DNA of 45,776 bases from Chiloscyllium plagiosum (lineage: Eukaryota): positions 16,394,466 to 16,440,241 of the forward strand of contig NC_057751.1 in the NCBI RefSeq assembly GCF_004010195.1, given 5' to 3'. The notes under the pieces are model-generated. The model was not told where the DNA came from. It saw nothing but the letters and a program-made list of their open reading frames with translations, and did not search any database. Made by a program: the position numbers and the translations under genes. Below, in pieces: positions 12,571 through 43,780 of the stretch (position 1 is the stretch's first letter; every line of letters starts with the position of its first letter).

Positions 12571-12759
12571 TCTTGGGATGTGTTCTTCCGAAATGCCAAT
12601 GCAGGGGCGGCGCCAGGCACAGCTTACCAAAGTCCTCCGCCGTTGGGTGCCAGCGTCGCGTCTCTGTCCAGCGTCCAGTCGGTGATGGTGGCTCAGCCCA
12701 ACGTGGACAAGTTGGTGGAGGATCACCTGGCAGTGCAGTCGCTCATCAGAGCTTACCAG
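12571..12759 (+). CDS. OGDH: 2-oxoglutarate dehydrogenase E1 internal coding exon (equivalent to human exon 3), phase 0-0
   Basis: Polypyrimidine+CAG acceptor at 12570 and CAG|GTAACC donor. The 189 nt translate to [63 protein letters not shown], close to human [26 protein letters not shown]...[23 protein letters not shown] and much less like OGDHL. Confidence 0.96.
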
Positions 12760-13124
12760 GTAACCACCCGGTGGGTGGGGGGAGTTGGAAGGCGGACCCC
12801 AGTTGTATGACCTCACTTGTTATCCTGTGCTGCTGCTCCCTTTGCAAGCTTACAGGCGAGTCTGTGCTCAAGGTTCAAATACAGTGACTTGCAAGGCTCC
12901 TTCAGGTGTGTGTGTGCGCGCATCTCCAGGCCTACCAAACTCAGGAAAGGATTTGCCAATGTGTTGGCCGGTTGAGCTTGGCAGCCATATTGAATTGAGT
13001 CAATGGGCAGCAGTCCCCTCATAATGTCTCCCAGCAACAAACTCGCCCTTTCCATCAAGTGGGGAGCCAAACCCCTTGAGCCGTGAACGGACACGGTCTT
13101 CCTCGCGCGTTCTCCTGGACAGCC

Positions 13125-13330
13125 ACCTCCTTCCGAGCTGCTGCTGTTCTGGGGCCTGTCAGGTTGCGGCCCTCCCTCCAAGCTGCTGCTGTCCAGGGGC
13201 CTGTCAGGATGTGGGCCTCCCTCCGAGCCGCTGCTGTCTGTGGCCTGTCCCGGGGTCTGTCAGGATGCGGCCCTCCCTCCGAGCTGCTGCTGTCTCTGAC
13301 CTGTCGCGACGCCTGTCAGGATGCGGGCGT
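13125..13330. repeat. GC-rich minisatellite, ~4 units of 44-59 bp
   Basis: cctccctccgagctgctgctgtc...gcctgtcaggatgcgg is repeated directly upstream of OGDH exon 4A. Confidence 0.85.
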
Positions 13331-13398
13331 TCTGCGTCGCTCGAGGCCCTTGGACGAGCACAGCCTAAAGCCTTTTGTTCTTGTTTCCCGTCCCACAG

Positions 13399-13498
13399 GT
13401 CAGGGGTCACCACGTCTCAAAGCTTGATCCGCTCGGCATTAATGTAGTCGCGTTCGATGAGTCGGGTAACGCTTTTCCAGTCGGGCCCTCCAGCCTCG
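13399..13498 (+). CDS. OGDH: OGDH mutually exclusive exon, upstream copy (4A-type, lacks DADLD motif), phase 0-1
   Basis: ttgtttcccgtcccacAG acceptor and G|GTGAGA donor. Translates to [33 protein letters not shown], resembling the human alternative exon VRGHHIAKLDPLGISCVNFDD. A second phase-1 donor (G|GTAACG) exists after 13465. Confidence 0.88.
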
Positions 13499-13678
13499 GT
13501 GAGACGCGTTTCGGGCACTTCCGTTTGCGTTGACGTTAAGGAAATGTATAAAAAAAAAATCCTCTCTTCTCCTTCCTCCTCCCCTCCCTCTTTTTCTCTC
13601 TCTCTCTCTCTCTCTCTCTCTCTCTTTCTCTCTGTGACTCCCTCCCTCCCTCCTCCATTTTCCTTTTCCTCATTTCAG

Positions 13679-13781
13679 ATCCGGGGTCACCATGTTGCGC
13701 AGCTCGACCCACTAGGAATCCTGGATGCGGACTTGGAGTCGTCCCTTCCAGCTAACCTAGTCACCAGCTCAAACGGACTTG
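13679..13781 (+). CDS. OGDH: OGDH mutually exclusive exon, downstream copy (4B-type, Ca2+-site exon), phase 0-1
   Basis: Long pyrimidine tract with TTTCAG acceptor and G|GTGAGG donor. The 103 nt translate to [34 protein letters not shown] versus human [34 protein letters not shown]. Confidence 0.95.
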
Positions 13782-41174: not shown

Positions 41175-41525
41175 AGGCTGGGATGTTTTTTCTTTCCCTG
41201 GAGTGTCGGAGTTCGAGAAGTGACTTTGCTGAGGTTTATAAAGTCCGAGGGGTGTGGATGAGGGGAATAACAAAGATCTGTTCTCCAAGGTGGGGGGAGT
41301 GCAACGCTCGAAGGCATTAAAGGGATGTGAGGGGTCACCTTTTCCACACAGAGGGCACATGGAACGAGCTGCCAGAGGAAGACGTTTGAACAGGGACGTG
41401 GATAGGAAACCTGCAGCGCGTTCTGAGCCAAACGCAGGCAAATCAAGACGAACGTTAGCTTGGAAACCCTGGTTGGCATGGACGAGTTGGCCCGGACAAG
41501 GGCCCGGTTCTGTGCTGGATGACTG
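41175..41525 (+). mobile_element. CR1/HER1 3' fragment; its upstream part is at ~40420-40600, split by a SINE
   Basis: The LINE sequence stops at gagggtttgagtt (40590) and resumes at aggctgggatgttttttctttccctggagtgtcggag after the SINE. Confidence 0.7.
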
Positions 41526-41828
41526 AGGGAACGCCACGCGGCCAGAGGGTACTGTCTTGCACGTTCTGCCTGGGGCAACCCGGCAGGATCCCACAGGTCG
41601 CAGTCCGGAGAGTTTTCCCCATTTGCCTTTGGTGCTCTCCGCCAGGGAACACTGGTGGTCTGTCTGAGCCAGCTGTGCAACAAATCGAACCTCTGCCTGC
41701 CCCCCCCCCCACCCCAGGATTACGACTCTTTCTGATATTTCTGGAAGCACGGGGGATGACTGTTCCCGAGTGGGGAATCGAGTAAATGTCTCTGCCTCTG
41801 ATTCGACGTTGTCCTTTCTGTTCCACAG

Positions 41829-41908
41829 GCTGTTTGGAAACTCATCACCGAGGTTGACTGAAAAGCTGAAGACTATTTTCTGCTACTTCAGCCAAGTGAC
41901 AGAAAACG
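41829..41908 (+). CDS. PARG-like coding exon, phase 2-1
   Basis: tcctttctgttccacAG acceptor and G|GTACGT donor. (R)LFGNSSPRLTEKLKTIFCYFSQVTEN matches human [26 protein letters not shown]. Confidence 0.93.
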
Positions 41909-42514
41909 GTACGTTATCTCTTTTCTTAGAGCCCGCTGGGGCGTCGGCTCCTTAAACCCTGTGTCGTCCCCGCCCCACGGAAGAAACGCTTAACTCCCTC
42001 TCAGGTGGAGTCGACTGGATTCCCGTTTCCAGGCCAGCAGGAGTGGAACACTGCCATCTAGTGTTCGTCAACTCCTTAAAGCGACTGAGTAAACGTAAAA
42101 GGGGCATCATGGGAAGTGGAACGAGCTGTGAGACTGAGAAGTCAATAAACTCCATCCGCACGGAAAAAGGTGCCCTTTTCTGTTCCAGTTCGGCAACAGA
42201 TGAAGGAGCGTGAGTGATGAAGGAGTTCTATTCTCCGAGGACAGCATTTAAGTGGGCGGGAGGACTTCAGGAGAGGTGGATTAAGTTAGACTCCAGTTCC
42301 GCGCTCTGTCTCTGCTGCTTCCCTTGCCCCCTTTATTTTGCCTGCTCTCCCACCTCAGGTATTTCCTGCCCTGTCCTGAATAAGACGTTTCTCCTCTCTG
42401 CCCTCTCCCAGCTCACCTTGTTCACCATCGATTCCCCTCCTCTGCTTCTCTCGACGCTGTAAGTCTGCAACTGCCCAACGTTCTGTCTTGTTCTCCCTGA
42501 GAAGTCGCTTTGTG

Positions 42515-42627
42515 GACGTGGCGTTGTAGACGTGGCGTTGTAGACGTGGCGTTGTAGAAGGGGCTTTGTAGGGGCATTGCAGATGCGACATTGGAGAAGG
42601 GGCATTGGAGAAGGGGCATTGGAGAAA
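42515..42627. repeat. Two adjacent 14-bp microarrays
   Basis: (gacgtggcgttgta)x3 followed by (ggggcattggagaa)x~3. Confidence 0.8.
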
Positions 42628-43719
42628 TTGCTCCCATTCCTTGGTGCTGTCTTTCAAAACAGCTCCCATCAGAATCGGAGTAGGCCATTAGGCCCCTCAC
42701 ACCAGCTCCGCCATTCACCAGGTACATGGCTGACCATCTCCCACAATTCCCTGTCTTCTCACATGATCCTTTGAAACCTCTCGATCTCTGTCCTTCATGT
42801 GACAAACGGGTCAAGCATCCGTTATTGTCTCCTCCGGTATCCTGGGGTGGCGGGGGGAGGGGGTGTAGGAGGGTTTTCAGGAGTGGGGGAGGGCTGGCTG
42901 TTGGAGGGGCCTATAGTTGCCCGTAATGAGATTGAGGTTTTGTTGTCACGTGTACTGAAGTACAGGGGTGCAGTGAAAAATGGACAATGTCGTCACGCAC
43001 GGCGCCATCTTAGGGACAAGGTACAAAATCTTAGATAAAAGGGAGGAAATAAGTGAAAAGTTCAGCTTCTTGGTAAAAAAACAGTCAATAAGGAATGGGT
43101 TTCAAGTTGCAGTTCACCTCTAGCCATGGCTTCATTGTTGGGCTTTCCCCACGACGGCTCAAGTCTCTCCCACGCGCTGGGCTCGATCCTCTTAACCTCC
43201 GGGCCGCCGTCTCGAGGCCCTCCGCCCTCCCGGCTCACCAACCGCCTCGTCACAGGCTGCCGGAGTCCCGCTCCAAGCTCCTGGCTGCTTTCCGCCATGC
43301 AGCTGGCCCTCAGAGCCCTTCCTGGGCACACCCAACCGCCTCCTGGGTCGACGTCACGCGGTACGGAAACGGCTCTCCTGCCCGATCCAAAGCCTGGGAG
43401 GGCACATCGGTGCCCTTTGGGGTCAGGGCGGAGGTCAGCAGTCAGCTAAGAGTGAGCCGGCTCCTCTCGGTCTTGAAATAAAGCAATTCGGCTGAAGGCC
43501 CGGGAGCTTAGGCGTGACGTGAGGCCTGTACCAAAAGGCCCCTGGCTTAATTTCCCTTCACTGTTATTTTATTCCTCTGGAAAACCTCTGTCACAAAGAG
43601 GAACTGGCGACACAGTTCTGAGCCCTGTTGTGCGAGGGCACGAAGCGTGCGTTATCGTTAACGCAGGAATGGAAATCTTTTCGGGTGGCGGTGTATAATC
43701 CAATCCTTTCTGTTGGCAG

Positions 43720-43780
43720 TTCCCTTTGGACTGGTGACATTCCAAAGATGTTGCATTCCAGGACCGATTCAATGGAAGAG
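43720..43780 (+). CDS. PARG-like coding exon, phase 1-2
   Basis: cctttctgttggcAG acceptor and AG|GTTAGT donor. (V)PFGLVTFQRCCIPGPIQWK matches human [20 protein letters not shown], and the phase fits the previous exon. Confidence 0.88.

What the first reader, a model, noticed from the sequence alone, without database searches (positions are those of the whole stretch)
12571..43780. PARG-like gene lies on the same strand inside an unfinished OGDH gene: nested gene or contig mis-ordering
Seen: OGDH stops after its mutually exclusive exons (13781). The next expected exon (GFYGL..SDLDKVF.LP) was not found in the following 32 kb, while seven PARG-like exons occupy 26500-43780 on the same strand. 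Known: human PARG neighbours OGDHL on 10q11 (PARG upstream, same strand), and human OGDH has no PARG neighbour. Inference: this is the sister OGDH-PARG linkage from early vertebrate genome duplication, with a PARG paralog that human lacks. Same-strand nesting would be very unusual. The exact 500-N gap between the genes makes mis-ordering at least as likely.
Basis: partly seen in the sequence, partly recalled or inferred. Interest (0 to 1): 0.75.

Follow-up and report, generated by a model that had tools for sequence, protein, structure and literature searches.

The report
Mis-scaffolded OGDH beside second PARG gene
The apparent gene-inside-a-gene is an assembly error: put back together, the shark OGDH gene ends 2.5 kb from the tail of a second PARG gene on the opposite strand, a copy shared by sharks, bony fishes and a caecilian that likely dates from an early vertebrate genome duplication and has lost one substrate-binding asparagine of the human enzyme.

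Summary
OGDH lies on four pieces. Its 5' exons are in the window. Exon 5 is on unplaced C82556, which starts with the letters that an independent run shows after window base 23900. The middle exons are on unplaced C101133. The last exons are on the minus strand of a 40,147-base block between two 500-N gaps; the PARG-like gene is on the plus strand of that block. C101133 ends mid-codon and the block's minus strand completes that exon. With the block flipped, all OGDH hits are collinear and PARG-like lies downstream, antisense, tail to tail. The linkage is real: canonical PARG-OGDHL lies on C38, and PARG-like shares a contig with OGDH in five other fishes. PARG-like forms its own clade (99/98) from sharks to a caecilian and keeps the catalytic glutamates, but 17 of 18 members lack the Asn740 equivalent. 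This genome's copy has a 2-base frameshift, cause untested. Databases annotate the gene; I found no paper on it.

The parts
12571..12759 (+). OGDH exon 3 (P0003 residues 75-137)
   Evidence: tblastn 91% identity, E 7e-30; AG/GT ends
13399..13498 (+). OGDH mutually exclusive exon 4a
   Evidence: 100 nt, phase 0 to 1, AG/GT; tblastn to P0003
13679..13781 (+). OGDH mutually exclusive exon 4b
   Evidence: 103 nt, phase 0 to 1, AG/GT; 92% identity
23901..24400 (.). Exact 500-N scaffolding gap. Left side truly continues into unplaced scaffold C82556; right side starts a 40,147-base block that is inverted in the assembly
24401..45776 (.). Window part of the inverted block (G000:C42:16418866-16459012). 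Beyond the window it holds six more PARG-like exons (+, to 16450323) and the OGDH 3' exons (-, 16459012 down to 16452871)
26500..26697 (+). PARG-like first coding exon found (ATG at 26503; acceptor AG before 26500)
   Evidence: 71% to P0122, E 2e-26
28044..28172 (+). PARG-like exon (P0122 residues 71-113)
   Evidence: 88%, E 3e-18
28685..28765 (+). PARG-like exon (residues 114-140); the next exon (141-165) was not found and may lie in the 447-N gap at 29747-30193
   Evidence: 89%; targeted search negative
37769..37858 (+). PARG-like exon (residues 166-195)
   Evidence: 93%
40094..40252 (+). PARG-like exon, 159 nt; the only phase mismatch in the gene (frameshift near the acceptor in this assembly)
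   Evidence: phase check 8 of 9 junctions fit, this one not; the C38 PARG counterpart runs phase 0 to 2; database model P0121 is the shifted, truncated reading
41829..41908 (+). PARG-like exon, 80 nt, same size and phases as in C38 PARG
43720..43780 (+). PARG-like exon, 61 nt, same size and phases as in C38 PARG

Best explanation
The PARG-like gene is not inside OGDH: the assembly splits one OGDH gene over four pieces and shows the 40-kb block that holds OGDH's tail and the PARG-like gene backwards, and the PARG-like gene is a separate neighbour, likely an early-vertebrate duplicate of PARG, predicted to cut poly(ADP-ribose) with an altered ribose-binding site. Shown: the split exon, the collinear order after flipping the block, the tail-to-tail arrangement, the clade, shared intron phases, the kept catalytic glutamates and the lost asparagine. 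Inferred: that a Hi-C scaffolder made the cuts (500-N gaps as its mark is my recall); the order OGDH(+), PARG-like(-), ZMIZ(+), cyclophilin(+); origin by whole-genome duplication together with OGDHL-PARG; later loss in amniotes; and any enzyme activity.
For: OGDH middle exons are on C101133 and a late exon on the C42 minus strand past PARG-like. Two exact 500-N gaps bound the block. C101133 ends one base into a codon of the exon for P0003 residues 867-890, and the block's minus strand begins with the other two bases, continues the exon and reaches a GT donor; 23 of 24 residues match P0003. One contig of run X7 leaves the window at 23900 into letters that match bases 1-28 of C82556 exactly, once in the genome. 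C82556 carries OGDH exon 5. After re-ordering, all 21 OGDH hits are collinear on one strand and all 13 PARG-like hits follow on the other. A ZMIZ-type and a cyclophilin exon follow on +, matching the cattle list PPIA, ZMIZ2, one LOC gene, OGDH (PMC7464420 passage). C38 holds OGDHL, PARG and, 1.8 Mb on, a ZMIZ-type gene. PARG-like and full-length OGDH share a contig length in 5 species, with near-consecutive accessions in 4. Clade support is 99/98. Four exons have identical size and phase in both paralogues (80, 61, 79, 109 nt).
Against: Two of the four predicted joins are not shown: C82556 to C101133 (no spanning hit; the exon for residues 187-224 is missing from the assembly) and window 24401 to C42:16459513 (a repeat). 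The split-exon join rests on sequence alone; no read spans it in my data. The C82556 join rests on one contig whose letters were shown; two more contigs run past 23900 but their letters were not listed. Linkage in other species is indirect (contig length and accession order), with no strand or order. The single lamprey sequence groups with PARG-like (97/88), and a jawed-vertebrate-only clade is barely not rejected (p-AU 0.057), so the date is open. The copy in this assembly is frameshifted.
Confidence: 0.9

Rival explanations
1. True same-strand nesting of PARG-like in OGDH intron 4.
For: Only the order inside the window.
Against: OGDH's last four exon hits are on the opposite strand. An independent contig leaves 23900 into C82556, not into the block. 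The split exon joins C101133 to the block's minus strand. Full-length OGDH and PARG-like proteins are annotated on one contig in three related sharks.
Confidence: 0.01
2. A real recent inversion broke OGDH in this animal or species.
For: The assembly shows OGDH halves on opposite strands.
Against: Both breakpoints fall exactly on 500-N gaps and scaffold ends, with zero bases lost at the split exon. No OGDH exon found has a stop, identity to whale shark is mostly above 85%, and no second OGDH copy was found.
Confidence: 0.02
3. The linkage is real but arose from a small segmental or tandem duplication, or a later move next to OGDH, not from genome duplication.
For: OGDH and OGDHL face opposite ways relative to their PARG neighbours. 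The lamprey position is unclear.
Against: Three gene families (OGDH, PARG, ZMIZ) are paired on C38 and C42 in the same order. OGDH/OGDHL are treated as part of a 2R paralogon in PMC2453138 (passage). The link persists from sharks to sardine.
Confidence: 0.12
4. PARG-like is a pseudogene in this species.
For: The exon at 40094-40252 breaks the frame. The database splits the gene into 228- and 160-residue models. No second copy of this exon in the genome.
Against: No stop in the 12 exons translated apart from the final one, and all splice ends are intact. Only 5 private substitutions in 382 columns, against 4 in the congener P0125. Three other shark genera and the congener have intact proteins. 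An assembly indel beside a (CT)n tract or a polymorphic allele fits as well.
Confidence: 0.3

Closest known systems
Human PARG catalytic domain (PDB 6oak, 4a0d, 5a7r and others)
   Same: phmmer E 1e-143 over residues 47-527 of P0122; both Pfam PARG domains above cut-off; glycine loop and the Gln-Glu-Glu catalytic motif kept.
   Different: About 50% identity to canonical PARGs, which are 66-72% alike among themselves. The Asn740 position is Ser or Cys. Shark proteins are about 545 residues with about 95-125 before the catalytic region, against about 490 in ray and snake PARG.
OGDHL-PARG pair (this genome: C38)
   Same: Same two families side by side, same exon sizes and phases in the catalytic region, and a ZMIZ-type gene beyond PARG's 5' end.
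   Different: On C38 PARG is upstream of OGDHL on the same strand; on C42 PARG-like is downstream of OGDH and convergent, 2.5 kb stop to stop.
Database entries 'poly(ADP-ribose) glycohydrolase-like' and the fish symbol pargl
   Same: The shark, gar, sardine and caecilian proteins carry this name. The symbol pargl appears in gene lists of PMC11017090 (passages).
   Different: No functional or evolutionary description found in my searches. That pargl is this clade was not tested.
NPY-receptor paralogon (human chromosomes 4, 5, 7/8/2, 10), PMC2453138
   Same: The paper lists OGDH (Hsa7) and OGDHL (Hsa10) among its neighbouring families (passages).
   Different: The word PARG does not occur in its main text.

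Membership tests
Nested gene | Inner gene lies between two exons of one host transcript | tested here: not met
   Host 3' exons are antisense in the assembly; after re-ordering PARG-like lies wholly beyond the OGDH stop.
Scaffolding artefact (cut and inverted block) | Fixed-size gaps at both breakpoints | tested here: met
   500 N at C42:16418366-865 and 16459013-512.
Scaffolding artefact (cut and inverted block) | Piece ends rejoin base to base | tested here: met
   Met for 2 of 4 predicted joins: window 23900 to C82556:1 and the split exon. The other two are not shown.
Scaffolding artefact (cut and inverted block) | Long reads span the corrected joins | not testable with these tools
   Only short-read contigs were laid.
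Canonical (macrodomain) PARG family | Helical accessory domain plus macrodomain | tested here: met
   PF20811 and PF05028 above cut-off in P0122, P0173, P0180.
Canonical (macrodomain) PARG family | GGG-X6-8-QEE signature (as defined in PMC4245714, passage) | tested here: met
   Present in this genome's exon at C42:16443574-721. In the alignment, 16 of 17 PARG-like rows have both glutamates; P0200 has Glu-Asp.
Canonical (macrodomain) PARG family | Asn740 contact to the 3''-OH (PMC8319183, passage) | tested here: not met
   17 of 18 PARG-like sequences have Cys (9), Ser (7) or Ala (1). Of 136 other hits, 120 have Asn, 2 Asp, 14 no motif match.
Canonical (macrodomain) PARG family | Hydrolyses poly(ADP-ribose) | not testable with these tools
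   Needs an assay.
Orthologue of human PARG | Groups with canonical PARG and sits next to OGDHL | tested here: not met
   Separate clade; the canonical gene is on C38 beside OGDHL.
Ohnologue from early vertebrate genome duplication | Duplication older than the shark/bony-fish split | tested here: met
   Both clades hold cartilaginous fish, ray-finned fish and tetrapods; supports 99/98 and 100/99.
Ohnologue from early vertebrate genome duplication | Paired neighbouring families on two chromosomes | tested here: met
   OGDH/OGDHL, PARG pair and ZMIZ-type genes on C42 and C38. Three families only; no chromosome-wide test.
Ohnologue from early vertebrate genome duplication | Timing against the cyclostome split (first or second round) | tested here: inconclusive
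   One lamprey row; groups with PARG-like 97/88; p-AU 0.057 for the alternative.
Retrocopy | No introns | tested here: not met
   13 exons found, phases shared with C38 PARG.

The most novel reading that the evidence does not exclude
Jawed vertebrates began with two PARG enzymes. The second, kept in sharks, ray-finned fishes and at least one amphibian and apparently lost in amniotes, swapped the conserved 3''-OH-binding asparagine for Ser or Cys across the clade and became an ADP-ribose eraser with a different substrate preference (for example branch points, short oligomers or terminal ADP-ribose), contrary to the common statement that there is only one PARG gene.
Probability: 0.25. Interest if true: 0.6.

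Novelty: new member of a known kind. Interest (0 to 1): 0.27.

Why it matters
The nesting does not matter biologically; it is a clear case of a scaffolder cutting a housekeeping gene inside an exon and hiding two pieces among unplaced scaffolds. What remains is modest but usable. Papers on fish still say there is one PARG gene (PMC10218123, PMC520745; passages). A second, fast-evolving PARG with a clade-wide change at a substrate contact would affect how PARG knock-outs and inhibitors are read in fish models, and gives a natural variant for testing what Asn740 does.

Tried and rejected
Joining window 23900 directly to the start of C101133 looked plausible by eye and was rejected: the contig evidence points to C82556. 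Trial junctions gave no spanning hits among fetched loci. Reads at the right side of the gap fell in a high-copy repeat and said nothing. No read test of the second gap or of the frameshifted exon was obtained. OGDH residues 187-224 were not found in the genome and 801-866 not in the fetched DNA. PARG-like residues 141-165 and 296-321 were not found. My query was in the shifted frame, so its single hit shows only the database's truncated model. Neighbour-numbered contigs C82555, C82557, C101132 and C101134 were fetched; contig numbers follow length, and they were used only as part of the blast database. Literature searches found no paper on this paralogue or on an N740A mutant; the library lacks most subscription papers and I opened no supplements, where gene lists or trees could mention it. 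Earlier scan findings: four look-ups; none bears on this locus. No fold or complex prediction was run, since 50% identity to solved structures settles the fold.
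Full report
Verdict. The real content is an ordinary, complete OGDH gene with a second PARG gene behind it on the opposite strand.

What the window shows. OGDH exons 3, 4a and 4b lie at 12571-12759, 13399-13498 and 13679-13781 on the + strand, and seven PARG-like exons between 26500 and 43780, all with AG/GT ends. The gap at 23901-24400 is exactly 500 N; the other four gaps are 44, 280, 447 and 77 N. 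The window is G000:C42:16394466-16440241 in a 3.56-Gb genome. A database protein encoded by these exons is labelled Chiloscyllium plagiosum by the tool.

Where the rest of OGDH is. A family search found OGDH-type exons on C38, C23, the unplaced 45,617-base scaffold C101133, and one on C42 at 16454722-862 on the minus strand. With whale-shark OGDH (P0003, 1037 residues) as query, residues 1-171 map to C42 on +, 225-800 and 867-877 to C101133, and 879-1037 to C42 on the minus strand from 16459010 down to 16452874. A second exact 500-N gap lies at 16459013-512, so the PARG-like gene and OGDH's tail share a 40,147-base block bounded by two such gaps. That 500 N marks Hi-C scaffolding joins is my recall, not a call result.

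The joins. (1) Contigs of four public runs were laid on 23400-24560. Three contigs from three runs continue past 23900; the letters were listed for one, from run X7. Those letters match bases 1-28 of unplaced scaffold C82556 exactly and nowhere else in the genome. C82556 (4,602 bases) holds the short exon 5, residues 172-186. (2) C101133 stops one base into a codon inside the exon for residues 867-890; the block's minus strand starts with the two missing bases and finishes the exon at a GT donor, with no overlap and no lost base; 23 of 24 residues match P0003. (3) C82556 to C101133 is not shown, and the exon for residues 187-224 was not found in the genome. (4) Window 24401 reversed to C42:16459513 is not shown, because that end is a repeat. 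So 2 of 4 joins are shown. In the re-ordered model all 21 OGDH hits are collinear on one strand and cover 933 of 1037 residues; all 13 PARG-like hits follow on the other strand. Residues 801-866 probably lie in the 2,881-N gap of C101133 (inference from position). The stop codons are about 2.5 kb apart inside the block, so the tail-to-tail arrangement does not depend on any join.

Gene order. Beyond the block, + strand exons of a ZMIZ-type SP-RING gene (C42:16484835-999), a cyclophilin (16550742-867) and a Frag1/DRAM-family gene (16572061-186) follow (the SP-RING and Frag1 hits are below Pfam's cut-off, the gene names are my inference). Cattle have PPIA, ZMIZ2, one LOC gene, OGDH, TMED4 in a row (PMC7464420, passages), which fits the flipped block. 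C38 carries OGDHL at 17.60-17.65 Mb and PARG at 17.76-17.88 Mb, both minus, and a ZMIZ-type gene at 19.68 Mb on +. The order OGDH-family, PARG-family, ZMIZ is thus the same on both chromosomes and only the OGDH-family gene is turned.

Linkage in other species. PARG-like and full-length OGDH share a contig length in Hemiscyllium, Rhincodon, Stegostoma, Polypterus and Sardina; accessions are near-consecutive in four of these (not Stegostoma), and gar has neighbouring UniProt accessions without contig data. That is 6 of 6 species where both records were retrieved; for Geotrypetes, Megalops, Hoplias, Coregonus, Dissostichus and the congener no OGDH record was at hand. This is indirect and gives no strand.

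What the PARG-like gene is. Orthologues of 544-550 residues are annotated in three other shark genera, and one of 472 in a congener. P0122 matches human PARG structures at E 1e-143 and both Pfam PARG domains. A first tree used 67 of the top 70 representatives (3 dropped for short coverage) plus 4 shark proteins. A careful tree used 30 rows that I picked from it, leaving out four unnamed teleost-clade rows and most invertebrates. PARG-like (sharks, caecilian, bichir, gar, tarpon, sardine, trahira, whitefish, toothfish, one unnamed) is a clade at 99/98; canonical PARG (ray, rattlesnake, pike, three unnamed) at 100/99. The lamprey sequence sides with PARG-like at 97/88, but a tree with it outside both is not rejected (p-AU 0.057), and long branches may pull. 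PARG-like members are 47-56% alike among themselves against 66-72% for canonical ones. Four exons have the same size and phase in both paralogues, and the other boundaries coincide, so it is a DNA-level duplicate. None of the named PARG-like sequences is from an amniote; six clade members are unnamed. Table 2 of PMC4245714 lists one PARG for human, mouse, chicken, lizard and frog and two for zebrafish (passage). Loss in amniotes is therefore inferred, not tested.

How it likely works. The glycine loop and both catalytic glutamates are kept. In human PARG, Glu755 and Glu756 hold the 2''-OH and Asn740 the 3''-OH (PMC8319183, passage). Counting 15 residues back from Glu755 in the aligned structure sequence gives the position that is Cys, Ser or Ala in 17 of 18 PARG-like sequences, but Asn in 120 of 136 other hits (2 Asp, 14 without motif match). 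Four of the 18 are close sharks, and one was assigned by best hit only. I predict an active or weakly active glycohydrolase with a changed ribose contact; the shark form also lacks most of the long N-terminal region. No activity was tested.

This genome's copy. The exon at 40094-40252 is 159 nt and is the only one of 9 testable junctions out of phase; its C38 counterpart runs phase 0 to 2. The database splits the gene into 228- and 160-residue models. All else is intact and private substitutions are not raised (5 against 4 in the congener, 382 columns). An assembly indel, a polymorphic allele and a very recent loss all fit; I could not tell them apart.

What is known. OGDH and OGDHL are listed in the NPY-receptor paralogon paper, which does not mention PARG (PMC2453138, passages). 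The symbol pargl occurs in grouper gene lists (PMC11017090, passages). Two zebrafish papers speak of a single PARG gene (PMC520745, PMC10218123; passages). PMC7969005 (start of abstract and passages) describes exons 4a, 4b and 5. Nine searches found no study of the paralogue; subscription papers and supplements were not seen.

Score. The striking claim falls. The paralogue is real, database-annotated and apparently uncharacterised, with one testable active-site change: interest 0.27.

Noticed in passing
G000:C42:16456996-16457230 (+), L026; inside an OGDH intron: A copy of one USP39 exon (E 1e-36 to human USP39) with 1.4 kb of following sequence, 88% alike to a second copy on C95328 that has a proper acceptor. 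The C42 copy lacks that acceptor context and is out of frame at its start: likely a duplicated fragment.
   Followed up: partly
L050 and L051, about G000:C42:16330800-16340000, minus strand: Exons that resemble the LIM-domain-binding (LDB) family upstream of OGDH, across another 500-N gap (one weak Pfam hit, E 0.029). Possibly a further LDB paralogue of the same paralogon.
   Followed up: partly
window 13499-13678: The intron between OGDH exons 4a and 4b is only 180 nt with a long pyrimidine tract, in line with the size restriction described in PMC7969005 (start of abstract).
   Followed up: no
G000:C82556:515-562: The short alternative OGDH exon 5, neuron-specific in other vertebrates (PMC7969005 passages), is present in this shark.
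   Followed up: partly
window about 34500-37600: A decayed LINE-like insertion with endonuclease-like motifs (my recall of the motifs) inside a PARG-like intron.
   Followed up: no
window 45250-45776 and 33130-33650: Tandem arrays: a 33-base unit at the window end and a unit of about 41 bases that recurs at several places.
   Followed up: no
P0122-P0125 alignment: All four shark PARG-like proteins have His where nearly all other rows have Asn in the helix motif after the catalytic loop (human N869 by my recall), a second pocket change limited to sharks.
   Followed up: no
G000:C42:16304612 and 16344358: Two more exact 500-N gaps within 120 kb upstream: the region is heavily re-cut, so other gene-order oddities here deserve doubt.
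   Followed up: no
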